DNA of 64,000 bases from a virus (lineage: Duplodnaviria; Heunggongvirae; Uroviricota; Caudoviricetes): the IMG/VR virus record IMGVR_UViG_3300001687_000947. One strand, 5' to 3'. Shown here piece after piece: positions 44,666-59,377 of the stretch (positions within the stretch are counted from its first letter, which is position 1; each line of letters starts with the position of its first letter). The notes under the pieces were generated by a model. It was not told the origin of the DNA. It did no database searches and worked only from the letters and a program-made list of their open reading frames with translations. Made by a program: the position numbers and the translations under genes.

Positions 44666-45034
44666 TTGGTTAGTTGGATAACAAGAACACTTGGTGTTAA
44701 AAGTTCCAGATCCAAGCTTAGGAAGGAAGAGTTTGGATTAATTATTGTGGATTTGAGAGATGTAGTAGATGGTCCTAATGATCCTATGGATATTATTAAG
44801 ACATTTAATAAAGTTCTTACTGTAGCTGCTGTTGGTAGAAAAAGCAATGTTAAAGTTGTACTTCAATGTGAAGCAGGAATATCTAGGTCATGTGCATTTG
44901 TAGCTGCTATATTTGTTCATGCTAATGATATGGAATGGGATGATGCTATAGATTTTGTTAAGAAGAAAGTACCTGAATGTCAGATGAACTTGGAGCTTAT
45001 TGATTCTATTAAAGAGGCTTTAGAGAGAGTATGA
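44666..45034 (+). CDS. Dual-specificity/tyrosine phosphatase-like protein (CX5R)
   Basis: VVLQCEAGISRSCAFVAAIF matches the hCxAGxxRS P-loop. Only a TTG start is available, so the N-terminus is uncertain. Confidence 0.5.
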   Translation: MVSWITRTLGVKSSRSKLRKEEFGLIIVDLRDVVDGPNDPMDIIKTFNKVLTVAAVGRKSNVKVVLQCEAGISRSCAFVAAIFVHANDMEWDDAIDFVKKKVPECQMNLELIDSIKEALERV

Positions 45035-45537
45035 ATAAATATGAACCAGTAGTTGCATCTGCACTTGCAGCAATACCAAAGGCTATTGTTATTAATGGTA
45101 GTAGACATGGTGTAGCTGTACTTATGAAAGATGGTACTATAGTGCAAGGATTTAATATTGAAAGTAGAGGATTTGATAACATTCATGGTGAGGTTGTAGC
45201 TATAATAATAGCATTGAACTTAGGTTATAGAAAGAATGATTTTGAAGGTATGGTTATAACTTGTGAAGGTAGAAGTGTGGTGCCTGGCTGTGCTACTTGT
45301 AGACAGTTTATGTGGGAACACACTAATCCAGATATGATAATTGTAGCATTTGATACAACTACAGCTAATGCTGAAATATATAAGCTTAGGGATTTATATC
45401 CGTTGCCTTATCCATCAGAGAAGAAACCTGTACCTAAACCAGAAGTAGTGGCTAAGAAAGTTGACAAAATAGTTAAAAGTAAGGACGTCAAAATAGAAGA
45501 TAAGGAAAGTGTTAAAGATGGTAAGAAAAAGGCTTGA
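45031..45537 (+). CDS. cdd: Cytidine deaminase (zinc-dependent CDA family) with Lys-rich C-terminal tail
   Basis: HGEVVAI (the H/C-x-E zinc/catalytic motif) and VVPGCATCRQFMWE (the PCxxCRQ motif) are present. Confidence 0.6.
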   Translation: MNKYEPVVASALAAIPKAIVINGSRHGVAVLMKDGTIVQGFNIESRGFDNIHGEVVAIIIALNLGYRKNDFEGMVITCEGRSVVPGCATCRQFMWEHTNPDMIIVAFDTTTANAEIYKLRDLYPLPYPSEKKPVPKPEVVAKKVDKIVKSKDVKIEDKESVKDGKKKA

Positions 45538-46690
45538 GTTAAGTAAGGAATTTTTAGATAATTTATATACTAATGAAAGGATGTCTATTAGGGAAATAGC
45601 TAAGAAAGTTGGGGGTTCTAAGGGACAAATAGAATATTTGCTTGAGTTATATGGTATTCCTAAACGGTCATTTAGTGAATCACATAAAGTTAAGCATAAT
45701 AGAAGAGTAGAGAAAGAACAAAGGGAAGAAGTTGAGGCTCTTAAGAAGAGAATTAAAGGATTTAAGATTAATACTACTTTTAGCCCAGCTGTTAAGAGAA
45801 ATATGTTGATTCCTGTTCCAATTGATAATAAATGTAGAGATGCATCTGTTACACTTGTTATGTCTGATGCTCATGTTGGTGATGTGGGACATTTACCTAA
45901 ATGTTTTTGGTCTTCATTCACTAACGCTATGGAAGTAATAAAGAATATTAATAGTTTCTATAAGATTAAGAAACTTAATTTACTTATTAATGGTGATGTT
46001 GTTTCTGGTGTTAATATTTATAGGTATCAAGAATTAAGTAATCTTGTACAGCGTGGTAATTGGCAAGTTGCACTTGCTGAAATAATTATTAGGGATATGC
46101 TTAAAGAATTAGAGAAGTATAAGAAAATTGATGATATTGTTTTTGTACGTGGAACACATGAGAAGTTTGGTAATAACTTTATTTTATACTTGAAGAGAAT
46201 AATGTCTGGTAACACTATATATTTATCTCATGGTGGAGTTTATGATTTAGGTCTTAAACCATATAAGCATCATACATTGTTTATGCATGGTTATGGATTC
46301 AATAATTCTAGTCCAGTATCTAGTAGAATGATTAATGATGTTATGAAGATTGTTAATAACTATAAGAATATGGGTATGAATGTTAATAGAGTATGTAGTG
46401 CTCATAGTCATTGGCTTAGTAGTGGATTAATAATTAATGATATTTACTGGGATACTACAGGTGGATTCCAGAAATGGGCTTATACTATTAATCAGAGACC
46501 ATGTGGTATGATTGTTTACTTGTGTGCTGGTGATGAATGTCTAAGTATTCCAGTTAGACCAAATAGTGATGTTGAACTAGAAGAAAAGTTTGATCCTGGT
46601 TTAAAGTACAGAAACTTGGTGTATTATGGTAATTATTTATTGAAGCATTTAAAGGAAGTTGAGGGGATAGAACAAAATGAGTATAGCTAA
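45509..46690 (+). CDS. N-terminal HTH domain fused to calcineurin-like metallophosphoesterase
   Basis: MSIREIAKKVGGSKGQIEYLLELYGI is an HTH. The phosphoesterase signatures are VMSDAHVGD (DxH), INGDVVSG (GDxxD), VRGTHEKF (GNHE-like) and HGG. Confidence 0.5.
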   Translation: MLKMVRKRLELSKEFLDNLYTNERMSIREIAKKVGGSKGQIEYLLELYGIPKRSFSESHKVKHNRRVEKEQREEVEALKKRIKGFKINTTFSPAVKRNMLIPVPIDNKCRDASVTLVMSDAHVGDVGHLPKCFWSSFTNAMEVIKNINSFYKIKKLNLLINGDVVSGVNIYRYQELSNLVQRGNWQVALAEIIIRDMLKELEKYKKIDDIVFVRGTHEKFGNNFILYLKRIMSGNTIYLSHGGVYDLGLKPYKHHTLFMHGYGFNNSSPVSSRMINDVMKIVNNYKNMGMNVNRVCSAHSHWLSSGLIINDIYWDTTGGFQKWAYTINQRPCGMIVYLCAGDECLSIPVRPNSDVELEEKFDPGLKYRNLVYYGNYLLKHLKEVEGIEQNEYS

Positions 46691-47873
46691 ACTTAAATTA
46701 TTATGGCATAGTGTAGCACCTTGGATACGTAGTGGTTACGGTAACGTAACTAATCAAGTTGTTAGTAGACTAGTTAAATTTGGATTTGATGTAATGATAT
46801 CAGCATATTATGGAACTGAACCAGGTGGTGAACTTGAGTATAATGGTGTAAAAGTAGTGTCAAGTAAGGAAGGACCATTTGGTATAGATTCAGCTTCTAA
46901 GTATGCTAGACGTTATGGTTGTGATGCGGGATTATTGTTTACTGATTGGTGGGCATTTAGTAATTTCCCTAAGATTCTACCTAGACCAATATTGTATGGT
47001 CCAATGGATCACACTAATTATAGTGAGGAAATATTAAATTTCACTAGGATGTACAGTAAAATAATTAGTTTGTGTAAATGGCAACAAGATTACTTGAAGA
47101 GTGTTGGTATAGAGTCTGATATGATATATCATGGTGTAGATACTTCAGTATTTAAACCATTAAATAAAGCTGAGTGTAGAAAGAGATATGGTATTCCTGA
47201 AGGAGTATTTGTTATTGGAAGTGTAAGAGCAAATAGTGATAAGGAAGACCGTAAAGGACACACCCGTGATATGAAAGCAGTATCTTACTGGTTAGAGCAA
47301 CATCCAGAAATTGACCGTAAGAAAATAGTGTGGATGTACCATACTGTAGCTAATGATCCAAGAGGTATGCCTTTAACAAGTATTGCTCATAAGTATGGTT
47401 TAGATGATATTATTAAGTTTATGGATCCAAGTCAACATGATACTATGATATCAACTGAAGATTTAGTTAAGTTAATGAACACTTTTGATTTTCATTTAAT
47501 GTGTAGTAAACGTGAAGGATTTGGTTTAACATTACTTGAAACTATGGCATGTGGAGTACCTAATATTACTCATAATTTTAGTAGTATGACAGAACTAGTT
47601 GAAGGTCATGGATGGTTATGTAAAAGTTTAGGTACAGGATTAAATCTTGAAACTACACCCATTAATGCTGAAACTGCTCATCCTGATGTGTATAGTATTG
47701 TTGATTGTATAGAGGAAGCTTACTTTAAAGATGATCTTAGAAAGAAATATGGTAAAGAAAGCCGTAAGTTTGCATTAAAGTTTAATTGGGATGATTTAGT
47801 GGTTAATGAGTGGGTTCCAGTACTTGATAGTTTACTTGAAGATAAATGCATTGATGACAGGAGATTGATATAG
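46677..47873 (+). CDS. Glycosyltransferase, GT4-like (GT-B fold)
   Basis: CSKREGFGLTLLETMACGVPNIT matches the E-x7-E GT4 C-terminal motif. Confidence 0.6.
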   Translation: MSIAKLKLLWHSVAPWIRSGYGNVTNQVVSRLVKFGFDVMISAYYGTEPGGELEYNGVKVVSSKEGPFGIDSASKYARRYGCDAGLLFTDWWAFSNFPKILPRPILYGPMDHTNYSEEILNFTRMYSKIISLCKWQQDYLKSVGIESDMIYHGVDTSVFKPLNKAECRKRYGIPEGVFVIGSVRANSDKEDRKGHTRDMKAVSYWLEQHPEIDRKKIVWMYHTVANDPRGMPLTSIAHKYGLDDIIKFMDPSQHDTMISTEDLVKLMNTFDFHLMCSKREGFGLTLLETMACGVPNITHNFSSMTELVEGHGWLCKSLGTGLNLETTPINAETAHPDVYSIVDCIEEAYFKDDLRKKYGKESRKFALKFNWDDLVVNEWVPVLDSLLEDKCIDDRRLI

Positions 47874-47999
47874 TGAGTAAAGAGTTGGATAAAGTAATAA
47901 TTACAATAACAGAAGATAATAAATTTAGTATTAACGGATATGATCCAGTTGTTATAACAAAGACAATTGATATTAAAATAGAAAAAATGTGGAAAGCGT

Positions 48000-49928
48000 A
48001 TGACTACTAAAGATATTTTTGTTGGTATACGTATAGATAATATTCATCCTTGGTTTGATAGGCACAAGCAAGTTATTAGAGATATTAATTATCCTAAAGA
48101 TAACATGAGGTTTGTTTATAGTATTCAAGATAATGTTTACAAGAAAACTATTGCTGAAGAGATAAAGAAGCTTAAGGATGAAACAGGATATAATATTGAA
48201 GCATATATTGAACCACATGACCGCAATCTTAAAGCGTATGGTCAACAAATGAGTGCTCCAATATTTAATGATTGGAAAAACATATTTGATGAAGACTATT
48301 TTATGTTACTTGATTCAGATATAGTTTTAATGCCTAAGTTTACTGTTAAGGAGTTACTTAGAGTTAACTACCCTATTACTGCACCTTATGTGTATATGAT
48401 TGGCACAGGAACATTTTATAGCACATGGGAATTTAGAATGGGTGGAAGAAGGTTTAGTAATCAGAATCCACCAGGTGCAGGATTACTTGTTCCTATACAG
48501 ATAGATTCAGCTGGAGCAGTTATGATGGTTCAAGGTGATGTATTTAAGGAAATAGAATTTACTAATCCTTATCCTACTGTAATGTTCTGTTATAGAGCTT
48601 TTAATAGAGGTTACAGGACAGCTGGGTTACCTTATGTTATGGTTCAACATGATAATTTAGCTGCCAGAAGAATATTTCATAGTCCTTTACCTAGAGAGCT
48701 TGGTGGGTATCCTATGGTTGGAAACTTTGTATCTTTCTATAATAGAGTTAACATATTGAATAGGAAGCCTTTACCAGCTTATCCTGAACTATTAACTTTA
48801 CTTAAAGAAGTTAATAGTCAATATATTGAAATATCTGATAAGCAGGCAACTGACTTGTATAATTGTAGTGATATACTTAAGAATGAAAAGTCTTTAGAGT
48901 GGGCTAAGAACATTACTAAGTTTTATAATTTTTACTTTAGTAAAGACCCATGGAAACTAATGTATCAGTATTATCATGAGCCTTTACCTGAATGGCTTGA
49001 GATAGAAACAAGTACTTATTGTAACTTTAAATGTTTAATGTGTGAGAATGCTCATTGGGATGAACCAGATAGGTTTATGTCACTTAATGAATTTAAGGGA
49101 ATAATTGACCAGTTTCCTGATCTTAAATGGATAGGCTTTAGTGGTATAGGTGAAGCATTTCTTAATCCTGATCATAGAGCTCAAATGCGTTATATTAAAG
49201 ATAAGAATCCTAATACTTATGTTGAGTATTTTGACCAGTTTTTCTTACAGCAACCTGAAGTGTTTAAGGAATGGATTGATTACAGTTATGATAAAGTATA
49301 CGTTAGTTTTGATGCGGCAACTAAAGAACAATATGAACATCAAAGACCTGGTTCAAATTATGAGAAAGTAATAAGTAACCTGAAGTTGTTTGATAAGATT
49401 AAGAAAGATGAAGGTAAACATTACCCTAGATTATGTTTCCATTATATTATTAACAAGGATAATATAGGTGAAGCGGTTGACTATATTGATTTTGTAGCTG
49501 ACTTAGATATTGATGTGTGGTTTATACAGTACACTAGAATGTTACATAGTTTTCCTGAGATAGAAGATATGAGAGTTGAGATTCCAAATAAACTAGTTAA
49601 GGATATTCAAGAGAGAGCTAAGAAACGTAAGTTAGAAGCTAGATTTAATGTTAATACTGGTAATATACTTTGTCCAAGTTACAGTTGTAACGCTTGGACT
49701 CAACCTTACATTTATGTTACTGGGCATATGATTCCATGTTGTGCATGTAATGAACGTAATGCAAGAAGCACACAGAAGGAAACAGCTATGGGTAACATAT
49801 TTGAGAATACACTAGAGGAAATATGGCGTGGTAAGAAGTTTAGGAAACTTAGGAAGAACATTATGACTGGTAAAGTTACTAATTGCTGTGAGCCTTGTCC
49901 TATATTTAACCAGAGGAGTTCACCATGA
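48000..49928 (+). CDS. Radical SAM enzyme with C-terminal SPASM-like Cys cluster and N-terminal extra domain
   Basis: EIETSTYCNFKCLMCENAHWDE contains CxxxCxxC. The C-terminal CPSYSCNAWTQPYIYVTGHMIPCCACNE...CCEPCP has seven or more Cys, SPASM-like. The first ~330 aa before the radical-SAM core are unassigned. Confidence 0.55.
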   Translation: MTTKDIFVGIRIDNIHPWFDRHKQVIRDINYPKDNMRFVYSIQDNVYKKTIAEEIKKLKDETGYNIEAYIEPHDRNLKAYGQQMSAPIFNDWKNIFDEDYFMLLDSDIVLMPKFTVKELLRVNYPITAPYVYMIGTGTFYSTWEFRMGGRRFSNQNPPGAGLLVPIQIDSAGAVMMVQGDVFKEIEFTNPYPTVMFCYRAFNRGYRTAGLPYVMVQHDNLAARRIFHSPLPRELGGYPMVGNFVSFYNRVNILNRKPLPAYPELLTLLKEVNSQYIEISDKQATDLYNCSDILKNEKSLEWAKNITKFYNFYFSKDPWKLMYQYYHEPLPEWLEIETSTYCNFKCLMCENAHWDEPDRFMSLNEFKGIIDQFPDLKWIGFSGIGEAFLNPDHRAQMRYIKDKNPNTYVEYFDQFFLQQPEVFKEWIDYSYDKVYVSFDAATKEQYEHQRPGSNYEKVISNLKLFDKIKKDEGKHYPRLCFHYIINKDNIGEAVDYIDFVADLDIDVWFIQYTRMLHSFPEIEDMRVEIPNKLVKDIQERAKKRKLEARFNVNTGNILCPSYSCNAWTQPYIYVTGHMIPCCACNERNARSTQKETAMGNIFENTLEEIWRGKKFRKLRKNIMTGKVTNCCEPCPIFNQRSSP

Positions 49929-50225
49929 AGTCTAAAGAAAGTATAATTGATTTAATACATAAAATTGAATTATCTCTTAATTGGTATGCTGGTGGAGATG
50001 AATATACTGCTGAGAGACAAGGAGTTATAGAGGCATTAAAGTGGGTATTAGAGAATAAAGAGTTGGATCCTGTATTATGGATGGTAAAGAAATGAAAGTT
50101 ATTAAGAAAAAAGATAGATGGATACTTGAAACAGAAACAAAGTCTGATAGAGAATTCTTGAAGGAAGCATTTAATATTCCTACATCATTTATTGATGTTG
50201 TAATACCTAGAGAGGTAAGATAAAA

Positions 50226-51275
50226 TTGCGTATTCTTATAGTTCATCCTATGTTTCATGTTTATGGTGGAGCAGAATTAGCTATAGTTAAATTAGTTGAG
50301 TATCTTAAAGGTAAAGATCATACTGTTGATTTGCTTACTATGATAACAATGCCAGAGGTTAAGGAAGATCTGAAAACAGATAACATATTTTATGCTAATA
50401 CTTATCAGGAGTTGGCACAGTTACTTGGTGGATTAACATTGAATTATGATGTTATTAATTATCATAATCATCCAGCTGAAGTACTGTTCCCTTCTCCATA
50501 TCCTTCAGTATGGTTTATGAATGAGCCACCAGAGGAAGCATTATGTGGACAACCACTTAATCCAACTGATGTTAAGCATGTGCATGATAATATAACTAAG
50601 ATTGCTGTATCAGATGTTTATAATAAGGTTAGAGTAAGGAAACTATATGATAGAGATGATGCTGTAGTTATTCCATATGGTGTAGATTATGATTATTTCA
50701 GTAAAGGTAAAGCAAACAGATGGTACTTTGATAATAAGAATAAATTTACTATACTTCAAGCAGCTTGGATTCATCCTAGAAAGAACCAGTTAGAAACTTT
50801 ACGTATATTTAATGAAGTGTTAAAGTTTGTTCCTAATGCACGTTTAATATTATGTGGAAGCATTACTGTTCCATATATTAATGAACTAATTAAGTATATT
50901 GAAGATAATAAATTGACTGATAATGTTACTATTGATGGAACATTTGGTGATAGAAACTATTTAAGGAATCTTTATCATAGTGTGGATTTACTGTTGCAAC
51001 CTATAACTGATCAAGGTGGATGGATTAGTCCATTGGAAGCAATATGTGCAGGTTTACCTGTTGTAGCATCTAACAATGCTGTATTTGCAAGTTACTTTAG
51101 GAAACATAAACTAGCTACTGTTACAGATAATTATATTGAAGCTATTATGGATATTTATAAACATAATAGAAAGTATAAGAAGATTAATAAGGTTGCTAAA
51201 GAGTATATTAAAGCTAATCTTACTTGGGAAAAGTATGCAAGTGAAGTTGAGAAGTTATTAAAGAGTGCTAAGTAA
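50226..51275 (+). CDS. Glycosyltransferase, GT4-like
   Basis: MRILIVHPMFHVYGGAE at the N-terminus. The C-terminal SPLEAICAGLPVVASNN is the GT-B nucleotide-binding motif. Confidence 0.55.
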   Translation: MRILIVHPMFHVYGGAELAIVKLVEYLKGKDHTVDLLTMITMPEVKEDLKTDNIFYANTYQELAQLLGGLTLNYDVINYHNHPAEVLFPSPYPSVWFMNEPPEEALCGQPLNPTDVKHVHDNITKIAVSDVYNKVRVRKLYDRDDAVVIPYGVDYDYFSKGKANRWYFDNKNKFTILQAAWIHPRKNQLETLRIFNEVLKFVPNARLILCGSITVPYINELIKYIEDNKLTDNVTIDGTFGDRNYLRNLYHSVDLLLQPITDQGGWISPLEAICAGLPVVASNNAVFASYFRKHKLATVTDNYIEAIMDIYKHNRKYKKINKVAKEYIKANLTWEKYASEVEKLLKSAK

Positions 51276-52111
51276 TGAATTCTTATGTAGAGATAATGAG
51301 ACCAAAATTATGGTTTAAGAATATTCTAGTGTTTGCACCATTATTCTTTACTGGATTAGTATTTTCATTTAATTATTATCCAGAGATGTTATTTAGAATG
51401 ATATTATTCTGTATGGCATCAGGATTTTCATATGTTATTAATGATATATTTGATAGGAAAAATGATTTACATCATCCTATAAAGAAGAATAGACCTTTAC
51501 CTTCAGGTAGATTATCTTTACTTGGTGCTATAGTATTAATTATAGGGTTAGGTTTAACTATAGGTATTGGTATGGGATTATTAGGATTTATATCATTTAT
51601 TCCATTATATATGATTAATACATTTGTTTATTCTAGAGTGTTAAAGAATTATATTGGAATAGATAATGTTTCAGTTGCTATTAATTACTGTTTAAGGTTA
51701 CTTGAAGGATATATTGTATTAAGTATAATGCCAAGTATTTATCCAATATTAACAGTATTTTTTCTATTAATGTTAATGAATACACTTAAGAAGAAAGAAG
51801 AGCATATGAGTTTAAAACATGATGCTGTTAAGCATAGGAAGAGTCTTAAAGGTATTAAGTTTGGTACTCAAGATATTATGATAGCTTGTTTCACGTCATT
51901 ATTTATATGGTCTATAATAATGTCTTTACCTAATGAATTATCATTATTAACTATTCCGTTAGTAGCGTTGCTTACAATAAAATATATTTACTTTATAGAT
52001 ACTGATCCAGATAAGATAATGTATCCTAATAGAGTATTTAAAGATAAACAATTTACAATAATATTTGCTATATTAGTTGTTTCTCTTATAGTTACAATGG
52101 TGATAGGATAA
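51275..52111 (+). CDS. UbiA-family prenyltransferase-like integral membrane protein (polyprenyl-phosphate modifying)
   Basis: It has multiple TM helices. NDIFDRKNDLHH is the NDxxDxxxD motif, and KKNRPLPSGRLS is the conserved RPLPSG loop. Confidence 0.55.
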   Translation: MNSYVEIMRPKLWFKNILVFAPLFFTGLVFSFNYYPEMLFRMILFCMASGFSYVINDIFDRKNDLHHPIKKNRPLPSGRLSLLGAIVLIIGLGLTIGIGMGLLGFISFIPLYMINTFVYSRVLKNYIGIDNVSVAINYCLRLLEGYIVLSIMPSIYPILTVFFLLMLMNTLKKKEEHMSLKHDAVKHRKSLKGIKFGTQDIMIACFTSLFIWSIIMSLPNELSLLTIPLVALLTIKYIYFIDTDPDKIMYPNRVFKDKQFTIIFAILVVSLIVTMVIG

Positions 52112-53181
52112 TGGTTAGAACATCTATAGTTATAGCTTGTTGCAATGAGGAAGAAGCTATAGGTAAGGTTGTTGATTCAATACTTAAAGTTAAAGGTAAA
52201 GATGATGAGGTAATAGTTGTTAATAATGGAAGCACAGATAATTCATTAAATATATTGAGGTCTTATGGTAATAAGATTAGAGTTATTTCTCATAGTAGAA
52301 TTTATCCTTATAGGGAATCTATAAGAAGTGGATGTAAGTTTGCTAGGGGAAACAAGATATTCTTTATGGATGGTGATGGACAGTACAAGTTTAATCCAAA
52401 TATTATAGAGCAAGGTAACGGTGTAATATCAGGTTTACGTAGTTTAAGAGCTGATGATAATATAGCTAAGTTTGCATCTAATATATTATATAAGATTTTA
52501 TCTATAGTGTTTAGAACTAAGCTTGATGATTTAAATTGTGGATATAAAGTGTTCTCTAGGGAATTGGTTCCACGTTTAGATGATTCTAAATATTTTAAGT
52601 ACAGTCCTTGGGTAGAGTTTATTATGGAATTATACTTTGATGGTTATGATATTAAACAACCTAAAATTAATCATTATAATAGGATAGGTACTGGTGGAAG
52701 TAGACTTAATAAGAGAAGGCTATTTACTATGACTGTTCAAGGAATTGGATTATTTACTTATATTATAGTTAAAATATCAAAGTTTTCTTATTATACATTT
52801 AAAACTAGAATATTAGGATTATTAGGTAGAAACCGTACATTTATAACTGATAATATTTGGATTACTGATAGTAAATCAACACTTACAGTATTTTCTATTG
52901 ATGCAAGAATATTACCTGAAGGAAGATATGTTAATCCTGAATATTTAGATAGTATGGTTATGGTGATAGAGGCTATGAGAAAAGTAATGCCTGTAAGTGT
53001 GTTCTGTAGACAAGGTAGAGGAAGATCAGTTATGAGTGTAGCTGGATGGTTAATGAAATATAAGGATATGAAATGGAATATAGCATATCAATTTATTAAA
53101 AGTAAACGTGATGTAGCTTATCTTACCAGAGAACAATTTAAAGTATTAAGGGACTATGAGAAGTGGTTAAAGAATGTATGA
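52111..53181 (+). CDS. GT2 glycosyltransferase (DPM1/GtrB-like) fused to C-terminal CX5R phosphatase-like domain
   Basis: The N-terminal SIVIACCNEEEAIG...VVNNGSTDNS...FMDGDGQY is GT-A/GT2. The C-terminal VSVFCRQGRGRSVMSVAGWLM is a PTP/DUSP P-loop. Confidence 0.5.
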   Translation: MVRTSIVIACCNEEEAIGKVVDSILKVKGKDDEVIVVNNGSTDNSLNILRSYGNKIRVISHSRIYPYRESIRSGCKFARGNKIFFMDGDGQYKFNPNIIEQGNGVISGLRSLRADDNIAKFASNILYKILSIVFRTKLDDLNCGYKVFSRELVPRLDDSKYFKYSPWVEFIMELYFDGYDIKQPKINHYNRIGTGGSRLNKRRLFTMTVQGIGLFTYIIVKISKFSYYTFKTRILGLLGRNRTFITDNIWITDSKSTLTVFSIDARILPEGRYVNPEYLDSMVMVIEAMRKVMPVSVFCRQGRGRSVMSVAGWLMKYKDMKWNIAYQFIKSKRDVAYLTREQFKVLRDYEKWLKNV

Positions 53182-53872
53182 TATTTGTGTAGTTAGTATG
53201 ATCTGTAATGAGATAGAGATACTTCCAATGTACTATAGGTATATTAAGAAATGGTGTAAATCATGGAAGGTTCTTGATCATGGAAGTACAGATGGTTCAG
53301 TAGAATTTCTTAAATATATGAGTGAACGTAATGAAATAAATATTGAAGTGTTCCAGAGAGAATGTGGTGATTTTGATAAGGACTTCTATAAGGAATGGAA
53401 TTGGATACTTGATAAAGTTGATTGTAAATGGACTTATGTTGGTCATATAGATGAATTTTGTCCATATATGGATACTATATTATCACAGATGTTCAAGTTT
53501 AATGCTATCTATATTATTAGAAGAGAAGAAATGATAAGTTTGTTTCCACCATTATCATTTGGTAAAGAAACGCCATTTATGAGGATATTTCCAACGGATT
53601 GGAAGATAAGATTTATAGAGGGTAATCATGTGCATAGAGAAGAGTTTAATCCTAGAGAATTTCCAGTTAGAGAAGCACAGATTCCATTCTATCATTTAGG
53701 GGAATGTAGAAATAGTGAACATGTTAGATTTAAGGAGAAAGCTTATGAGGATTGTTCAGGTGATACAATATTTGGTTCTAAGTATACTGAGAAAGATAGA
53801 CAGGAAAGACGTAAGGGAGCACATTTACTTAAAGATGAACATTTACCTGATTTAATGGATATGATATTATAA
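53174..53872 (+). CDS. GT2-like glycosyltransferase (small)
   Basis: VVSMICNEIEILP...DHGSTDGS fits a GT-A N-terminal pattern. Confidence 0.4.
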   Translation: MYDICVVSMICNEIEILPMYYRYIKKWCKSWKVLDHGSTDGSVEFLKYMSERNEINIEVFQRECGDFDKDFYKEWNWILDKVDCKWTYVGHIDEFCPYMDTILSQMFKFNAIYIIRREEMISLFPPLSFGKETPFMRIFPTDWKIRFIEGNHVHREEFNPREFPVREAQIPFYHLGECRNSEHVRFKEKAYEDCSGDTIFGSKYTEKDRQERRKGAHLLKDEHLPDLMDMIL

Positions 53873-54906
53873 TGAGTAAAATAAAAGTATGTATGGATGG
53901 TGTACCAGGTTGGCTTGGCAATTGTGTACAACGGAAACTTTATGATAATCCAAGATTTGCTACTGTAAGAGCAATGTACTTTGGGGATAAACATCCACTT
54001 ACAGAAGAAGGAAGTAAAATAGAATATGTGGCTGGGGATATTAGGAATTACAGTAAGTGTCTTGAATTAACTAAGGATATGAATATACTTGTTCACATTG
54101 TTGGCATTATACATCCAAAGAAAGTTAAGGATTTCTATAACATTAATGTTAAAGGCACAGATACTATTATTAGAGCAGCTATTGAGAATGGTGTTGAACG
54201 TATAATACATATTTCAAGTAATAGTGTTTACGGTATGTATCCTTATAGTATGAATGAGTTTACTCCTAGAGATTCCTATATGCATTACGGTAAGAGTAAG
54301 GCTATGGGTGAAGATATAGTGTTCCAGAAGTGTATGGTATCTGATACTGAAGCAGTTATACTTATTCCGTGCTGGTTTTACGGTGAAGGACAGCCTGATA
54401 GATCAACTAGACTGTTTAAGATGATAGCTAAAGGTAATCCTATGATATTTGGTAAAGGAAATAACGTGAGGGGAATGACTTATATTGGTAACTTAGCTGA
54501 TGCAATAATTAAAGCTATTGAGAAACCTAAATCAGAAGGTGTGAATAGCTACTGGATATGTGATGATGAGCAACATACCACTAATGAAATATATAAGGCT
54601 ATATGGATTGAATTATGGAAGCGGGGAATAAGAGATAAAGGTAAAGCGTATGATGATATGGATGTTTGGAAGTTTAAACCTAGATATTTACCTAGTGTAG
54701 CATGTAAGGTTGGAAGGTTTGGAGATAGGGTGCTTCAAGGTTTAGGATTATATAATCAAACTATTCATGTGCTTGGTGAAATGGACCAGAATATTGCTGC
54801 TGATAATACTTTAGCTAAGAGAGAGCTTGGTTGGAAGAATAATGTTAGCTTTGAGGAAGGTATAGCTAGAAGCATTCAATGGTGCAGAGAGAATGGTAAG
54901 TTATAA
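53872..54906 (+). CDS. NAD-dependent epimerase/dehydratase (extended SDR)
   Basis: A Gly-rich N-terminus (CMDGVPGWLGNCV) and catalytic YGKSK (YxxxK) are present. Confidence 0.55.
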   Translation: MSKIKVCMDGVPGWLGNCVQRKLYDNPRFATVRAMYFGDKHPLTEEGSKIEYVAGDIRNYSKCLELTKDMNILVHIVGIIHPKKVKDFYNINVKGTDTIIRAAIENGVERIIHISSNSVYGMYPYSMNEFTPRDSYMHYGKSKAMGEDIVFQKCMVSDTEAVILIPCWFYGEGQPDRSTRLFKMIAKGNPMIFGKGNNVRGMTYIGNLADAIIKAIEKPKSEGVNSYWICDDEQHTTNEIYKAIWIELWKRGIRDKGKAYDDMDVWKFKPRYLPSVACKVGRFGDRVLQGLGLYNQTIHVLGEMDQNIAADNTLAKRELGWKNNVSFEEGIARSIQWCRENGKL

Positions 54907-54932: not shown

Positions 54933-55640
54933 AGAAAAATAATAGTAATAACTAATGTTGGTAAATACAAGTTATTCTATAGGAAAGGTACTATTGATGA
55001 GTTTATATTTGGTGAAGTAACAGGTGGAAACTATAATGGCTACAAGAAGTATGTTTCTGATCCAAGAGTAATTATTGATATTGGAGCACATATAGGAACA
55101 TTTACTCTTAAAGTATTAAATGATCATCCTAAAGCAAAAGTATGGTCATGGGAAATTATACCAGCAAACTATGATATGTTACACTTTAACATATTAATTA
55201 ATGCTCTAGATGGTAAATGTAAAGCATTTGAATTTGGTGTAAGTAAAGATACTTATAATAGAATTGCTATGATGTCTACTGTTAATAATGGTGCTAATAT
55301 TTTAACTAGTCCAAATGATGGAATTATAGATAAAGGAGATATGATTAAAGTAGCTACATTAGACTTTGAGAGCGTAGTTAATATTACAGGTAAGAAAGAA
55401 GTGGATTTAGTTAAGTGTGATATTGAAGGTGCAGAGTTTGAAGTGTTTATTAATTGTAAACGTAGTTTATTAAGGAAGGTTAAATGTTATATTATGGAAA
55501 TTCATGTTAACAAAGATGATATTAAAGGAATGTATAATTTAAGGTTATTAGCTGAAACATTTGAGAAAGGTGGATTCAAGATTATGCAGAGTGGTCCTAT
55601 TATGTTATTTATAAGGGATGATATATATGGTAAGAAATAA
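54933..55640 (+). CDS. FkbM-family methyltransferase; N-terminal part has no in-frame start, apparently frameshifted from ATG at 54917 in an A5 run
   Basis: The open frame from 54933 encodes ...VIIDIGAHIGTFTLKVL... (FkbM SAM-binding motif) but has no ATG/GTG/TTG before 55176. The ATG at 54917 (MNIKVKK) is in the -1 frame relative to it. Deleting one A of aaaaa (54935-54939) joins them. Confidence 0.5.
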   Translation, partial: RKIIVITNVGKYKLFYRKGTIDEFIFGEVTGGNYNGYKKYVSDPRVIIDIGAHIGTFTLKVLNDHPKAKVWSWEIIPANYDMLHFNILINALDGKCKAFEFGVSKDTYNRIAMMSTVNNGANILTSPNDGIIDKGDMIKVATLDFESVVNITGKKEVDLVKCDIEGAEFEVFINCKRSLLRKVKCYIMEIHVNKDDIKGMYNLRLLAETFEKGGFKIMQSGPIMLFIRDDIYGKK

Positions 55641-56442
55641 AGATGTAGAAATATTATATGGTAAAAATGTACTTAAGCAATTTAGAAATTATTTGTTTAA
55701 TGAAAATCCAATATCATTGTTTGATGGTAGAAAAGTTGGGTTTCTAGTTAAACCTAATATGTTACGTAATGAATCATCTAGTACAGGTATAACAACTGAT
55801 GTTAAAGTAGTAGAGATTATTGTTGATTACTTGTACAGTATGGGATTTAGAGATATAATTGTTGGTGATGGTGGAGAAGCAAGTTATGATACTATGGAAA
55901 CTTTACGGAATAATAATTATTTTAGTATAGTTGATATTTATCCTGAAGTTAAGATTGTTGACTTAAATAAGGGACCAATGATTCCAAAGGTTATAGGTAA
56001 TGTTCAAATGTTTATTAATAAATATGCTTTAGATCATTATGTTATTAGTGTAGCCAAGCTTAAACCTCATGGTATGATGCAAGCAACTATGACACTTAAG
56101 AATCTTATGGGATGTGTGTTACCTAAAGGACATATGCATGATAATTTTACTATGAAGATACGGGATGTTTATAATTATATTAAACCTATTTACGGTGTAG
56201 TTGATGGTATTATAGCTAATGGTAGATGTGAGAACATTGCTTGTCCAGTTAAGATGAATACTATTCTTTGCGGTAGAGATTTACCAACTGTTGATAAGAT
56301 TGGTTCTATGATTATAGGTAGAACGGCTAGTCATATAGATAATTTGTATAAACGTAAGAATGAAGCATTAGATAATAATTTATGTGACAAGAAGATTTTA
56401 TCTAATCTAATTAATTTATATAGGAAAGGTGGATTAAAATAG
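55618..56442 (+). CDS. DUF362-like protein
   Basis: VGFLVKPNMLRNESSSTGITTDVKVVEIIVDYLYSMGFRDIIVGDGGE resembles the conserved DUF362 N-terminal block. Confidence 0.35.
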   Translation: MIYMVRNKDVEILYGKNVLKQFRNYLFNENPISLFDGRKVGFLVKPNMLRNESSSTGITTDVKVVEIIVDYLYSMGFRDIIVGDGGEASYDTMETLRNNNYFSIVDIYPEVKIVDLNKGPMIPKVIGNVQMFINKYALDHYVISVAKLKPHGMMQATMTLKNLMGCVLPKGHMHDNFTMKIRDVYNYIKPIYGVVDGIIANGRCENIACPVKMNTILCGRDLPTVDKIGSMIIGRTASHIDNLYKRKNEALDNNLCDKKILSNLINLYRKGGLK

Positions 56443-57155: not shown

Positions 57156-58157
57156 TTGAGTAGTGGTATTGTTGTTACTGGTTCAAGTGGATTCTTAGGT
57201 TCAGCAATAGTTAAGGAGTTGCTTAAGAGAAAACATGAAGTAGTTGGAATAGATATTGTTCCAGCAAGCAAGTGGATGTTTGCTAGTAAACTGTTTAAGT
57301 TTCATAGAATGAGTGTAGTTAGTCATAAAATATATGATATTGTTGAAGGTAAAACTGTTATTCATTGTGGTGCCAAAGTGCCTATAACAAGATCAAGTTT
57401 TGCTGAATATGTTACTACTAATGCAACTGGTTCATATAATATAGCTTTAGGTATGCCTAAGAAATATATATTCATTAGTTCATCAGCAGTATATGGTGTT
57501 CCTAATAGAGTAATAAAAGAACATACAAAGTATAAACCTATAGAGAATTATGGTAAAAGTAAGCTTATGGCTGAAGGTTTACTTAGTATGCATCATATTA
57601 TGACAGATATGCCTCTTACTATTATTAGACCAAGAACAATAATAGGTAATGGTAGAATGGGAATGATGGATTTCCTGTTCCCTAGAATAATGAAGAATAA
57701 ACCTGTATATTTACTTGGAGACGGAAAGAATAAATTCCAGTTCTTAGCTCTAGATGATCTTGTTAGTGCTATTATGAAGTGTATTGATTTAGATTATGGA
57801 TTCCACATTTATAATTTAGGTACAGATGATTATACTACTTTAAAGGAAGATATTGAAGATACTATTGTTAGGGTTGGATCTAAAAGCAAAGTAATCTGTT
57901 TGCCTAAATGTTCAAGTTGGATACTTAGAGTAATAGATAATCTTGGTTTATCACCTATGACAAGATGGCATTATGATACTATATCAAGTAATTTTGTATT
58001 TGATATTTCTATAGCTGAGAAAGAGCTTGGTTGGCATCCATTATATTCTAATAAGCTAATGTTGTTTAGTGCTTATAATTGGTATAGCAAACATAAAGGT
58101 GAAGGTAATACTCCTCACACTAAGAGTATAAATAAGAAACTATTGGAGTGGATATAA
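57156..58157 (+). CDS. NAD-dependent epimerase/dehydratase
   Basis: IVVTGSSGFLGSAIV (GxxGxxG) and YGKSKLMAE (YxxxK) are present. Confidence 0.65.
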   Translation: MSSGIVVTGSSGFLGSAIVKELLKRKHEVVGIDIVPASKWMFASKLFKFHRMSVVSHKIYDIVEGKTVIHCGAKVPITRSSFAEYVTTNATGSYNIALGMPKKYIFISSSAVYGVPNRVIKEHTKYKPIENYGKSKLMAEGLLSMHHIMTDMPLTIIRPRTIIGNGRMGMMDFLFPRIMKNKPVYLLGDGKNKFQFLALDDLVSAIMKCIDLDYGFHIYNLGTDDYTTLKEDIEDTIVRVGSKSKVICLPKCSSWILRVIDNLGLSPMTRWHYDTISSNFVFDISIAEKELGWHPLYSNKLMLFSAYNWYSKHKGEGNTPHTKSINKKLLEWI

Positions 58158-58158
58158 T

Positions 58159-58815
58159 ATGGAAACTAATTATGAAGCTATAATACTTGCTGGTGGAGAA
58201 TCATGGAGACTTAAACCTGACATATGGACAACTAAACCTATGCTTAAGATAGGTGATTGGACACTACTTGAATATCAGTTACGTTGGCTAATGCAGTATG
58301 GTATTAAACATATTATAATAGCAAGTGACCAGAAGTATAATATTAGATTGTCATTTGATGAGTATGTAACTTGGGCTATAGAGTCATATCATAAAGGTAC
58401 AGGTGGAGCAGTTATGGTTGCTGTTGATTATCTTAATAATCCAAAGCTTCCATTCTACGTTATGAATGTTGATGATATATGTTTAGGTTATAATCCAGTT
58501 ACTTTAATTGTTCCTGAGACAGAAGCTAGAATAGCTGTAGCTAAACCTAGACTTGGGTTTGGAATGGTGAAACTTAGACAGGATTTAGTGTTAGGATTCA
58601 AAGAGAAGCCTTATGCTGACTTCTATGTGTCATGTGGACACTATGCTTTCAAGAAACATATTGTTGATAGATACTTTCCAGATGATGGAAGCCTAGAGGA
58701 TATTGTATTACCTGAGTTAGCTAGAAGAAGAATATTGCATAACCAGAGACTTCATAAGTGGTACACTATTAACACAACTAAAGATTATATGATCATTAAA
58801 GAAATGTTAGAGTGA
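58159..58815 (+). CDS. Sugar-phosphate nucleotidyltransferase
   Basis: AIILAGGESWRLKP matches the LAGGxGxRL signature of NDP-sugar pyrophosphorylases. Confidence 0.55.
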   Translation: METNYEAIILAGGESWRLKPDIWTTKPMLKIGDWTLLEYQLRWLMQYGIKHIIIASDQKYNIRLSFDEYVTWAIESYHKGTGGAVMVAVDYLNNPKLPFYVMNVDDICLGYNPVTLIVPETEARIAVAKPRLGFGMVKLRQDLVLGFKEKPYADFYVSCGHYAFKKHIVDRYFPDDGSLEDIVLPELARRRILHNQRLHKWYTINTTKDYMIIKEMLE

Positions 58816-58864: not shown

Positions 58865-59377
58865 ATGGGATTGTCATTACATATAGAGGAGTATCTATCT
58901 AATAAGCATTGGAGAAAACGTAGAGAATGTATAAAGGGATATTTAGCGGGATTTATTGATGGAGAAGGATGTATTTCTTCCACTAAACATAAGTTTATAG
59001 GGAATAATAACAAGAGATATTGTTATTATAAGCCATGTATAAGGATAGCAAATACACATAAGGATACAATGATTATAATTGGGAAAATACTTGATAAACT
59101 AGGTGTTTCATGGACATGGTATGAGCAAAATAGGAACAGATGGAATTCAATTTATTATATATCAATAAGGAAAAAGAATAGTATTATACTGTTGTTATCT
59201 GAGATTCTACCGTATCTGATAACTAAGAATGAACAAGCAAGAATAATGTTAGAGCTACTTAAAATTGGAAGTCACATAAATAATAATACTGATAAATTGG
59301 CAAAGGAGCTATCTTATCTTAACACTAAAGGTAAATTCTGGAGGAAGAGTGAAAAATGGATGACTGTAATTACATAA
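58865..59377 (+). CDS. LAGLIDADG homing endonuclease (single-motif, homodimer type)
   Basis: YLAGFIDGEGCI. The size is about 170 aa. It overlaps the nrdD start by 22 nt. Confidence 0.7.
   Translation: MGLSLHIEEYLSNKHWRKRRECIKGYLAGFIDGEGCISSTKHKFIGNNNKRYCYYKPCIRIANTHKDTMIIIGKILDKLGVSWTWYEQNRNRWNSIYYISIRKKNSIILLLSEILPYLITKNEQARIMLELLKIGSHINNNTDKLAKELSYLNTKGKFWRKSEKWMTVIT

What the first reader, a model, noticed from the sequence alone, without database searches (positions are those of the whole stretch)
51275..53181. UbiA prenyltransferase followed by a GT2–CX5R-phosphatase fusion protein
51275..52111 has the NDxxDxxxD and RPLPSG signatures of UbiA enzymes, as in decaprenyl-phosphate phosphoribosyltransferase. 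It overlaps by 1 nt the next gene, whose N-terminal half is a dolichol-phosphate-sugar synthase-like GT-A domain. Its C-terminal ~100 aa carry a protein-tyrosine/dual-specificity-phosphatase P-loop (VFCRQGRGRSV). A glycosyltransferase covalently fused to a DUSP-fold domain is, to my knowledge, unreported. By analogy to laforin-type carbohydrate phosphatases or to the phosphoribose-dephosphorylation step after DPPR synthase, the domain may remove a phosphate from a lipid-linked sugar phosphate. A second stand-alone CX5R protein lies at 44666.
Basis: partly seen in the sequence, partly recalled or inferred. Interest (0 to 1): 0.6.

Follow-up and report, generated by a model that had tools for sequence, protein, structure and literature searches.

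The report
Viral sugar-lipid enzyme fused to phosphatase
A family of large, probably archaeal, tailed viruses carries a conserved gene set for making a lipid-linked five-carbon sugar, and the phosphate-removing step this pathway needs is probably done by an unexpected type of phosphatase fused to a sugar-transferring enzyme.

Summary

The fusion is real and conserved but rare. About ten diverged versions exist, all metagenomic. Those with enough flank lie in viral contigs (up to about 114 kb) with the order UbiA / GT2-DSP / SDR1 / SDR2. Relatives carry the same genes unfused: GT2 then DSP as separate overlapping genes, or the DSP after SDR2. UbiA, GT2, DSP and the SDRs therefore form one functional module.

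Best reading (about 0.5): the DSP domain is the phosphoribose 5-phosphatase that PPPRS pathways require, replacing the HAD or PAP2 enzymes used in bacteria. The chemistry resembles that of PTPMT1. This is a new variant of a known pathway. The biochemistry is untested, and no flippase or GT-C was found.

The parts
51275..52111 (+). UbiA-family membrane protein of the polyprenyl-phosphate 5-phosphoribosyltransferase (PPPRS/DPPRS) type, 278 aa
   Evidence: Pfam UbiA 4e-21. NCBIfam DPPR synthase 1.9e-34 and HAD-UbiA PRK08238 1.5e-33, against 5e-12 or weaker for other UbiA subfamilies. Best PDB match is Rv3806c, 8j8j, 1.7e-13. Of the Rv3806c active-site and PRPP-contact positions, R22, K28, Y70, N73, D74, D77, D81, K87, R90, Y138, K143, Y157, R160, K191, E195 and K208 are kept or conservatively kept; only Q135 is not (residue roles from PMC10994848). 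It is the only polytopic membrane protein in the window.
52111..53181 (+). Single ORF encoding the GT2-DSP fusion protein, 356 aa; its start shares 1 nt with the UbiA stop codon
   Evidence: Full-length homologues: P0002, P0025, P0027, P0029, P0050 and L008-L011. AlphaFold2 model at pLDDT 94.8, pTM 0.88.
52111..52716 (+). GT-A (GT2) domain, residues 1-202, of the polyisoprenyl-phosphate glycosyltransferase type (DPMS/GtrB/ArnC-like)
52369..52377 (+). DGD (DXD) metal and nucleotide-sugar motif, D87-D89, inside the invariant 'DGDGQY'
   Evidence: D87, D89, G90, Q91 and Y92 are invariant in six fusion proteins. The motif is present in all ten fusions listed.
52717..52821 (+). Long hydrophobic and basic helix, residues 203-237, joining the two domains; probably lies at the membrane surface and does not span it
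   Evidence: Helix 203-237 in the model. Kyte-Doolittle maximum is 1.57, which is borderline. Net charge is +2 to +4. The equivalent stretch in P0002 carries E, D and K. In unfused relatives it is split into a C-terminal helix on the GT2 and an N-terminal helix on the DSP.
52822..53178 (+). Minimal dual-specificity-phosphatase (PTP-fold) domain, residues 238-356
53005..53028 (+). Catalytic P-loop C299-R-Q-G-R-G-R305-S306 (CX5R-S)
   Evidence: C299, G302 and R305 are invariant. C..G..R[SA] is present in 19 of 19 family members.
52918..52920 (+). E270 of the 'PEG' motif, 29 residues before the Cys; the probable general acid, where other DSPs have Asp
   Evidence: The position holds E in 18 of 19 family members and N in one, while the stand-alone window DSP has D there. 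Its role is inferred from spacing only.
53174..53872 (+). 232-aa GT-A-like protein (weak Glyco_tranf_2_4 match), a recurrent member of the module
   Evidence: Pfam 0.0036. Homologues lie next to the module in L001, L008, L009, L011, L021 and L022.
53872..54906 (+). SDR1: extended short-chain dehydrogenase/epimerase (3beta-HSD/Epimerase type), a module member
   Evidence: Pfam Epimerase 1e-24 and 3Beta_HSD 9e-24. It lies immediately downstream of GT2-DSP or of the DSP gene in L001, L008-L011, L015-L018 and L021, and close downstream in L014. YGKSK is visible in the sequence.
57156..58157 (+). SDR2: GalE/4,6-dehydratase-like extended SDR, a module member
   Evidence: Pfam Epimerase 3e-30. It follows SDR1 directly in L001, L008-L011, L013 and L018.
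46677..51275 (+). Upstream part of the conserved glycan cluster: GT4a (46677-47873), GT-A + radical-SAM/SPASM fusion (48000-49928), GT4b (50226-51275)
   Evidence: Pfam. The same order is seen in L001, L008, L009 and L011.
55176..56442 (+). FkbM methyltransferase (55176-55640) and DUF362 protein (55618-56442), inserted between SDR1 and SDR2 in this virus only
   Evidence: Pfam. Both are absent from the other loci.
58159..58815 (+). Sugar-1-phosphate nucleotidylyltransferase at the 3' end of the cluster
   Evidence: Pfam NTP_transferase 3e-14. NCBIfam HddC/GlmU-like.
44666..45034 (+). Stand-alone minimal DSP (P-loop QCEAGISRS); not part of the module
   Evidence: Pfam DSPc 5e-11. Only a 34-residue local match to the fused domain. 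It lacks the N-terminal helix. Its neighbours are a dCMP deaminase and an Ogg glycosylase.

Best explanation
The two genes belong to a conserved viral module that makes a polyprenyl-phosphate (probably dolichyl-phosphate) linked pentofuranose.

Step 1 (strongly inferred): the UbiA protein transfers ribose-5-phosphate from PRPP to polyprenyl phosphate, giving polyprenyl-P-ribofuranose-5-P.

Step 2 (inferred; the central claim): the C-terminal DSP domain of the next protein is held at the membrane surface by its hydrophobic and basic helix. It removes the 5-phosphate through a Cys299 thiophosphate intermediate, with Arg305 binding the phosphate and probably Glu270 acting as the acid. It would be a non-orthologous replacement for the HAD-type PRP domain of Citrobacter ORF15 and for the PAP2 enzyme Rv3807c. 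The chemistry parallels that of PTPMT1, which removes the terminal phosphate from phosphatidylglycerophosphate.

Step 3 (speculative): SDR1 and/or SDR2 epimerise the lipid-linked ribose, or else they make the nucleotide sugar used by the GT2 domain.

Step 4 (inferred from family only): the fused GT2 domain is a DPMS/GtrB-like enzyme that loads a sugar from a nucleotide sugar onto polyprenyl phosphate, or onto the lipid-linked pentose.

The fusion itself most simply arose when two adjacent, overlapping genes (GT2 then DSP) merged in one viral lineage. The products presumably feed glycosylation of host or virion surface structures, using a flippase and transferases that were not found here.
For: PPPRS identity:
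- The DPPR-synthase models score far above other UbiA subfamilies.
- The best PDB match is Rv3806c.
- The 5'-phosphate triad K28/Y70/Y157 and the pyrophosphate-binding K/R cluster of Rv3806c are conserved in eight viral homologues. PMC10994848 states that the phosphoribose-binding sites are not conserved in ordinary UbiA enzymes.
- A cellular homologue at 32% identity sits beside a DprE1-like FAD_binding_4 gene and a DprE2-like adh_short gene.
- HAD-UbiA fusions appear among the homologues, for example P0226.

A phosphatase is required. PMC11127046 states that PPPRS products need a separate or fused phosphatase, and that known ones come from different structural families. This UbiA has no HAD domain.

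The DSP is the candidate:
- No HAD, PAP2 or other phosphatase family appears among 62 ORFs scanned in the window.
- The metallophosphoesterase-motif neighbour looks like a DNA exonuclease.
- The DSP fold is modelled with high confidence, and the catalytic Cys, Gly and Arg are invariant in 19 of 19 relatives.

Functional linkage:
- UbiA / GT2-DSP / SDR1 / SDR2 is conserved in six viral loci at 30-38% identity.
- Unfused versions keep the same partners. L013 has UbiA / GT2 / SDR1 / SDR2 / DSP. L016, L017 and L021 have GT2 / DSP / SDR1. L022 has UbiA / GT2 / DSP / GT-A-like.
- All five stand-alone family members whose context was looked up lie in this module.

Against: - No enzymology exists, and the substrate is inferred from context only.
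- The DSP is fused, or directly adjacent, to the GT2 gene rather than to UbiA. This could mean its substrate is made by the GT2 domain.
- The module lacks the flippase and GT-C that define the known pentofuranose systems. None was found in 73.5 kb of the roughly 97-kb genome, nor within ±10 kb in five other viral loci.
- Sequence searches do not single out lipid phosphatases. MAP-kinase phosphatases and archaeal PTPs score as well as or better than PTPMT1.
- The usual general-acid Asp is replaced by Glu.
- Q135 of Rv3806c, which contacts ribose O3, is not conserved.
- The archaeal host is only inferred, from RadA, PolB, ERCC4 and Ogg genes and from weak PolB similarity to haloarchaeal viruses.
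Confidence: 0.5

Rival explanations
1. The two domains of the fusion act in sequence on one intermediate, as in GT-plus-phosphatase pairs such as GpgS/GpgP, MpgS/MpgP or TPS/TPP. The GT2 domain would glycosylate a phosphorylated acceptor, possibly polyprenyl-P-ribose-5-P itself or another phospho-compound, and the DSP domain would then remove that phosphate. In the reverse order, the DSP would free the 5-OH and the GT2 domain would glycosylate the lipid-linked ribose.
Against: Sequence models that cover most of the GT domain are all polyprenyl-phosphate glycosyltransferases, namely PgfS, Dol-P-hexose transferase, ArnC, AglJ and GtrB. GpgS matches only the first ~90 residues. In L013 the DSP is separated from GT2 by both SDR genes, so tight coupling is not obligatory. 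This rival overlaps with the main explanation if the phosphate removed is still the ribose 5-phosphate.
Confidence: 0.2
2. The DSP domain is a polyprenyl-diphosphate phosphatase, or another carrier-lipid phosphatase. It would supply polyprenyl monophosphate, the common acceptor of both the UbiA enzyme and the GT2 domain.
For: Both neighbouring enzymes are predicted to use polyprenyl phosphate. CX5R enzymes that cleave phosphoanhydrides are known, for example RNA triphosphatases and Siw14-type PFA-DSPs (my own knowledge). The domain carries a membrane-surface helix.
Against: Hosts already make and recycle the carrier lipid. This reading leaves the obligatory 5-phosphate removal without an enzyme. 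No precedent exists for a DSP-fold Und-PP or Dol-PP phosphatase. If the host is a euryarchaeon using Dol-P-linked glycans, no diphosphate is released on transfer (my own knowledge).
Confidence: 0.1
3. The DSP domain is a protein (Tyr/Ser/Thr) or nucleotide/RNA phosphatase. It would act in regulation or host takeover and would have been fused to the GT2 gene by accident of gene order.
For: The best sequence matches in PDB include MAP-kinase phosphatases and archaeal protein tyrosine phosphatases. Archaeal viruses do encode small DSPs, for example 7ncy. This virus has another such DSP at 44666 in a nucleotide-metabolism neighbourhood.
Against: This reading does not explain why the subfamily, fused or not, lay beside the GT2, UbiA and SDR genes in every context examined, across sequences only 20-38% identical. 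It also does not explain the conserved hydrophobic and basic N-terminal helix.
Confidence: 0.1
4. The UbiA protein is an ordinary prenyltransferase, for example one acting in archaeal lipid or quinone synthesis. The cluster would then have nothing to do with phosphoribose, leaving the DSP with an unrelated role.
For: Automatic names on several homologues read '4-hydroxybenzoate polyprenyltransferase'. All NCBIfam scores are below the curated cut-offs. Q135 is not conserved.
Against: DPPRS-type models beat every other UbiA subfamily by more than 20 orders of magnitude. The phosphoribose-specific residues are conserved. A homologue lies next to DprE1/DprE2-like genes. HAD-UbiA fusions appear among the homologues.
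Confidence: 0.07

Closest known systems
Citrobacter youngae ORF15 (HAD-type PRP domain fused to a UbiA-type PPPRS) and the three-component pentofuranose glycosylation systems (PMC11127046)
   Same: Both have a UbiA-type enzyme with the NDxxDxxxD loop that should make polyprenyl-P-Rib-5-P. Both need a dedicated phosphatase. Both have SDR epimerase genes beside the pathway. In both, the phosphatase is physically fused to a membrane-associated pathway enzyme.
   Different: Here the phosphatase is a Cys-based PTP/DSP fold, not an Asp-based HAD. It is fused to a GtrB/DPMS-like GT2 and not to the UbiA enzyme. No MATE flippase or GT-C was found. The setting is a probably archaeal tailed virus, not a bacterial O-antigen locus.
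Mycobacterial decaprenyl-phospho-arabinose pathway: Rv3806c (DPPRS), Rv3807c (PAP2 phosphatase), DprE1/DprE2
   Same: Rv3806c is the best solved homologue of the UbiA protein, and its PRPP-contact residues are conserved. The pathway logic is the same: transfer, then dephosphorylation, then redox epimerisation.
   Different: The phosphatase family differs (DSP versus PAP2). Two extended SDRs stand in place of the FAD oxidase DprE1 and the classical SDR DprE2. The lipid carrier and the end product are unknown.
PTPMT1 (mitochondrial DSP-fold phosphatidylglycerophosphate phosphatase)
   Different: The viral domain is not specifically closer in sequence to PTPMT1 than to other DSPs. It is shorter, at about 120 residues. 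It has Glu at the general-acid position. It has a different membrane helix. It is fused to a glycosyltransferase.
Polyisoprenyl-phosphate glycosyltransferases: Pyrococcus DPMS (5mlz), GtrB (5ekp), ArnC
   Same: All share the GT-A fold, the DXD motif and the G-x-R-x-x-R-x-D stretch. These are the best structural and profile matches.
   Different: The C-terminal transmembrane helices of DPMS, GtrB and ArnC are missing. A single helix plus a DSP domain replaces them.
Bifunctional glycosyltransferase-phosphatase enzymes (MpgS/MpgP, TPS/TPP)
   Same: A sugar-transferring domain is covalently joined to a phosphatase of the same pathway.
   Different: Those phosphatases are HAD-type, and the substrates are soluble sugar-phosphate products of the GT itself.
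Laforin / SEX4 / LSF2 glucan phosphatases
   Different: They use carbohydrate-binding modules and act on polymeric glucans. They are weaker matches than PTPMT1 or the MKP and archaeal PTPs, and no CBM is present here.

Membership tests
PPPRS/DPPRS clade of the UbiA superfamily (for 51275-52111) | NDxxDxxxD motif in cytoplasmic loop 1 (N73, D74, D77, D81 of Rv3806c) | tested here: met
   The window has 'INDIFDRKND'. All four positions are conserved in eight viral homologues.
PPPRS/DPPRS clade of the UbiA superfamily (for 51275-52111) | Phosphoribose-specific contacts absent from ordinary UbiA enzymes: 5'-phosphate triad K28, Y70, Y157; ribose contact Q135 | tested here: met
   K28 is K or R, Y70 is Y, and Y157 is Y in all full-length homologues. 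Q135 is not conserved, but an invariant Asn sits at position 134. Residue roles come from PMC10994848.
PPPRS/DPPRS clade of the UbiA superfamily (for 51275-52111) | Score above the curated family cut-off of the DPPRS equivalog models | tested here: not met
   119 bits against a cut-off of 234 for NF008977. The protein is a distant member, not an equivalog.
PPPRS/DPPRS clade of the UbiA superfamily (for 51275-52111) | PRPP-dependent phosphoribosyl transfer to polyprenyl phosphate | not testable with these tools
   Needs the membrane assay with farnesyl-P or dolichyl-P and PRPP.
Dual-specificity / PTP-fold Cys phosphatases (for residues 238-356) | CX5R(S/T) P-loop with conserved Cys and Arg | tested here: met
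   The loop is C299-RQGRG-R305-S306. Cys, Gly and Arg are invariant in 19 of 19 relatives.
Dual-specificity / PTP-fold Cys phosphatases (for residues 238-356) | PTP/DSP fold: central sheet, with the P-loop between a strand and a helix | tested here: met
Dual-specificity / PTP-fold Cys phosphatases (for residues 238-356) | General-acid Asp about 30 residues before the Cys | tested here: inconclusive
   The position 29 residues upstream is Glu, in the 'PEG' motif (E in 18 of 19, N in one). A nearby D264 is only partly conserved. No coordinates were available to check the geometry.
Polyisoprenyl-phosphate glycosyltransferases, GtrB/DPMS/ArnC type (for residues 1-202) | GT-A fold with a DXD motif, closest to DPMS/ArnC/GtrB | tested here: met
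Polyisoprenyl-phosphate glycosyltransferases, GtrB/DPMS/ArnC type (for residues 1-202) | C-terminal transmembrane anchor (1-4 helices) that forms the lipid-acceptor site | tested here: not met
   There is only one borderline hydrophobic helix (Kyte-Doolittle 1.57). It is charged in homologues. Unfused GT2 relatives end after a short helix.
Three-component pentofuranose glycosylation system (PMC11127046) | PPPRS that charges polyprenyl phosphate from PRPP | tested here: met
   See the PPPRS rows above. Sequence-level evidence only.
Three-component pentofuranose glycosylation system (PMC11127046) | [quoted passage not shown] | tested here: not met
   The UbiA protein has no HAD domain, and no HAD domain appears in any of the 62 scanned ORFs of the window. 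A DSP domain is the only candidate.
Three-component pentofuranose glycosylation system (PMC11127046) | Dedicated flippase (MATE or GtrA-like) and a GT-C transferase | tested here: not met
   UbiA is the only polytopic membrane protein in the 64-kb window, in 9.5 kb beyond it, and within ±10 kb in L001 and L008-L011. About 23 kb of the genome was not seen.
Three-component pentofuranose glycosylation system (PMC11127046) | Auxiliary SDR epimerase acting on the lipid-linked pentose | tested here: inconclusive
   Two extended SDRs with YxxxK are strictly syntenic. Whether their substrate is lipid-linked or nucleotide-linked cannot be told from sequence.

The most novel reading that the evidence does not exclude
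The GT2-DSP protein is a true bifunctional enzyme that forms a membrane complex with the viral PPPRS. The DSP domain would define a fourth, Cys-based structural class of phosphoribose phosphatase. The GT2 domain would then glycosylate the freshly dephosphorylated dolichyl-P-pentofuranose, and the pentose would become the lipid-proximal sugar of a virus-specified glycan. This would be the first pentofuranose-lipid pathway in the archaeal domain, and it would be supplied by a virus.
Probability: 0.15. Interest if true: 0.8.

Novelty: new variant of a known kind. Interest (0 to 1): 0.6.

Why it matters
PPPRS pathways make mycobacterial arabinan, Pseudomonas pilin arabinose and enterobacterial O-antigen pentofuranoses, and they always need a phosphatase. 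That step is already known to have been filled by unrelated enzyme families. A PTP/DSP-fold enzyme in this role would add a new structural class. It would extend the small set of DSPs that act on lipid head groups, such as PTPMT1 and PTEN. It would also provide a sequence marker for finding such pathways where HAD or PAP2 enzymes are absent.

The finding further shows that a lineage of roughly 100-kb, probably archaeal, tailed viruses carries a conserved nine-gene glycan cluster. The cluster contains a PRPP-dependent lipid-sugar synthase. This points to virus-directed surface glycan remodelling in uncultured anaerobic hosts. The hypothesis can be tested directly with a published assay.

Tried and rejected
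- The first structure prediction used a shallow 15-sequence alignment and left residues 239-263 below pLDDT 50. It was superseded by the 39-sequence model.
- A word-indexed protein search with the two-sequence DSP profile returned nothing. The full HMMER scan of representatives was needed instead.
- The 16-sequence DSP alignment was too diverse for locus finding.
- The afdb50 fold library was unavailable, so UniProt-wide absence of the architecture could not be checked by structure. BFVD showed no two-domain match.
- I considered the 393-aa metallophosphoesterase-motif protein (45509-46690) as the pathway phosphatase. I rejected it because its only matches are a phage exonuclease family, the PolD small subunit, and DNA-binding N-terminal hits.
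- I considered the hydrophobic helix 203-222 as a transmembrane span that would place the DSP outside the cell. I rejected this because homologues carry charged residues there, unfused GT2 and DSP relatives have no transmembrane segment or signal peptide, and the two domains are placed confidently together.
- The search of 185,579 species genomes found only GT2-domain relatives, with no fusion and no module. That scan is pattern-limited.
- The stand-alone DSP at 44666 is not a paralogue partner of the module.
- The hunt for a GT-C or flippase was negative.
- The upstream partial ORF of L014 looks UbiA-like by eye but was not detected by a viral UbiA HMM.

Full report
**Observation.** The window is 30% G+C, has a strong positive GC skew, and carries all its genes on the + strand. 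ORF 51275-52111 (278 aa) and ORF 52111-53181 (356 aa) exist as described and share one base, with TAA and ATG overlapping. The first is a UbiA-family protein containing 'INDIFDRKNDLHHPIKKNRPLPSG'. The second has Pfam Glycos_transf_2 over residues 5-93 (2e-20) and DSPc over residues 277-351 (3.7e-11, above the gathering score), with the P-loop VFCRQGRGRSV. The stand-alone CX5R protein at 44666-45034 is also real.

**What the genome is.** The window encodes a family-B DNA polymerase, a RadA/Rad51 recombinase with an HhH domain, a phage portal protein, an anaerobic ribonucleotide reductase, an Ogg-HhH glycosylase, an ERCC4 nuclease and one tRNA. The fusion protein is found on a 96.9-kb ENA contig and a 90.9-kb JGI contig. 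The best GenBank phage matches of the PolB are haloarchaeal tailed viruses at about 25% identity. I conclude that this is a tailed virus of about 97 kb, probably of an archaeon. The host assignment is inference only.

**The UbiA protein.**
- NCBIfam places it with decaprenyl-phosphate phosphoribosyltransferases (1.9e-34) and with the HAD-UbiA model PRK08238 (1.5e-33). Other UbiA subfamilies score 5e-12 or weaker. All scores are below the curated cut-offs, so it is a distant member.
- Its only solved relative is M. tuberculosis Rv3806c.
- I mapped the residues that the cryo-EM study lists as binding PRPP (PMC10994848) onto eight viral homologues. Conserved positions are R22, K28 (K or R), Y70, N73, D74, D77, D81, K87, R90, Y138, K143 (K or R), Y157, R160, K191 and E195. 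R192 is conserved in all but the window (K). Q135 is not conserved.
- That paper says the phosphoribose-binding sites are not conserved in ordinary UbiA enzymes, so this conservation discriminates.
- A cellular homologue at 32% identity lies beside FAD_binding_4 and adh_short genes, which is the DprE1/DprE2 arrangement. A HAD-UbiA fusion is among the hits.
- The product is therefore most likely polyprenyl-P-ribose-5-phosphate, which needs dephosphorylation.

**The fusion protein.**
- With a 39-sequence alignment, AlphaFold2 gives pLDDT 94.8 and pTM 0.88. The model has a GT-A domain (residues 1-202), one long helix (203-237), and a small alpha/beta domain with strands 242-246, 249-252, 261-264 and 295-298. 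The P-loop lies between the last strand and helix 305-318.
- Sequence profiles agree. The GT domain matches PgfS, Dol-P-hexose transferase, ArnC, AglJ and the GtrB-like PHROG. The DSP domain matches archaeal PTPs, MKPs and PTPMT1.
That test is passed. Cys, Gly and Arg of CX5R are invariant in 19 of 19 relatives at 20-38% identity. So is a Gln in the C-terminal 'LTxEQ' motif. An 'EG' motif 29 residues before the Cys holds E in 18 of 19. That Glu sits where DSPs have the general-acid Asp. Its role is inferred from spacing alone.

**Is the fusion real, and how common is it?**
- In a 5.8-billion-protein index, only the window protein and one 34%-identical protein carried both domains.
- An exhaustive HMMER scan of 1.84 billion representatives with the DSP-domain profile found further fusions: P0025, P0027, P0029 and P0050. 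It also found a set of ~140-aa stand-alone proteins matching the whole domain, including its N-terminal helix.
- IMG/VR holds four more viral contigs of 107-114 kb with full-length fusions.
- None has a name or a UniProt/nr entry. No solved or BFVD structure has the two-domain architecture.
- A pattern-limited scan of 185,579 species genomes found only GT2 relatives.

**Context is the key evidence.**
- In the window, L001, L008, L009 and L011 the order is exonuclease-like / GT4a / GT-A+radical-SAM-SPASM / GT4b / GT-A-like / UbiA / GT2-DSP / SDR1 / SDR2. The window moves the GT-A-like gene and inserts a methyltransferase and a DUF362 gene. L010 has the same genes rearranged, and the L018 contig begins inside the radical-SAM gene.
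- Unfused relatives keep the same partners. L013 has UbiA / GT2 (225 aa) / SDR1 / SDR2 / DSP (139 aa). L016, L017 and L021 have GT2 / DSP / SDR1, with GT2 and DSP as separate genes overlapping by 16-22 nt. L022 has UbiA / GT2 / DSP / GT-A-like. L015 has DSP / SDR1.
- All five stand-alone members whose context I looked up are in this module.
- UbiA, GT2, DSP and the SDRs are thus one functional unit. The fusion is most simply a merger of two adjacent overlapping genes.

**Mechanism.**
- PMC11127046 shows that PPPRS products must be dephosphorylated. Known systems use a fused HAD domain or separate enzymes of other structural families (PAP2 Rv3807c is one). SDR epimerases can then convert lipid-linked ribose to other pentofuranoses.
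- The viral UbiA has no HAD domain. Of the 63 ORFs of at least 110 aa in the window, I scanned 62, and none matches a HAD, PAP2 or other phosphatase family.
- The metallophosphoesterase-motif neighbour looks like a DNA exonuclease.
- The DSP is therefore the only candidate for the required phosphoribose 5-phosphatase.
- The reaction removes a terminal primary phosphate from a polyol that is phosphodiester-linked to a lipid. PTPMT1 performs the same kind of reaction on phosphatidylglycerophosphate (established knowledge).
- The linking helix is hydrophobic and basic, but it is not a credible membrane span across the family. Neither unfused partner has a transmembrane segment. Both domains are most likely cytoplasmic and peripheral to the membrane.
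- Shown: domain identities, fold, conservation and synteny. Inferred: substrate, general acid, the roles of the SDRs and the GT2 domain, and the host.

**What does not fit.**
- The DSP is linked to the GT2 gene and not to UbiA.
- The purpose of a GtrB/DPMS-like GT2 alongside a PPPRS is unexplained. It might make a second lipid-linked donor, or it might extend the lipid-linked pentose.
- No flippase or GT-C occurs in 73.5 kb of this genome or near the module in other viruses. The pathway's end point is therefore unknown, or it is supplied by the host.
- The system should not be filed as a member of the three-component pentofuranose systems, although it probably works like their first half.

**Verdict.** I rate it a new variant of a known kind of pathway, with moderate to high interest. 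It rests on one untested but readily testable enzymatic assignment.

Noticed in passing
window 48000-49928: A 642-aa protein joins an N-terminal GT-A-like (Anp1-faint) domain to a radical-SAM + SPASM domain. It is conserved in the same position in L001 and L008-L011, which is an unusual architecture for a glycan cluster.
   Followed up: partly
L001 906-3134 and L010 3155-5083: The GT4a homologues here are 742 and 642 aa, against 398 aa in the window. The L001 insert begins 'CYDDKTEVLTKEGW' and contains a LAGLIDADG-like block, so it is probably an intein inside a viral glycosyltransferase. This was judged by eye only.
   Followed up: no
window 58865-59377: A free-standing LAGLIDADG / PI-PfuI-like homing endonuclease gene overlaps the start of the anaerobic ribonucleotide reductase gene at 59356.
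   Followed up: no
window 44666-45034: A second, unrelated minimal DSP (P-loop QCEAGISRS). Gene callers give it 95 or 122 aa. It lies next to a dCMP deaminase and an Ogg glycosylase, so it may act on nucleotides or proteins and not in the glycan module.
   Followed up: partly
window 45509-46690: A 393-aa protein with metallophosphoesterase motifs (DAHVGD, NGD, GTHE, HGYG, HSHW) and a DNA-binding-like N-terminus. It lies at the 5' edge of the glycan cluster in every locus that extends that far. It gives no Pfam hit; it matches PHROG 'exonuclease' at 7e-7 and weakly matches the PolD small subunit.
   Followed up: partly
window 12-848: An SPFH/Band-7 domain protein (Pfam 9e-32) encoded by a virus.
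   Followed up: no
window 1-64000: Every sizeable gene is on the + strand. GC skew is uniformly +0.24 to +0.50 across 64 kb, at about 30% G+C.
   Followed up: no
Context of P0210 (JGI 3300072015, no DNA held): A cellular UbiA homologue at 32% identity sits between a DprE1-like/DprE2-like gene pair and Wzy, GT4, GT2 and GT4-family (PF00953) genes. It is a likely uncharacterised arabinofuranose or pentofuranose pathway outside the Actinobacteria.
   Followed up: no
L014 2-418: The partial ORF upstream of the most divergent fusion (P0050) is a polytopic membrane protein that looks UbiA-like by eye ('YPLRLAIGY', 'TRKGDNRH'). A viral UbiA HMM did not detect it.
   Followed up: partly
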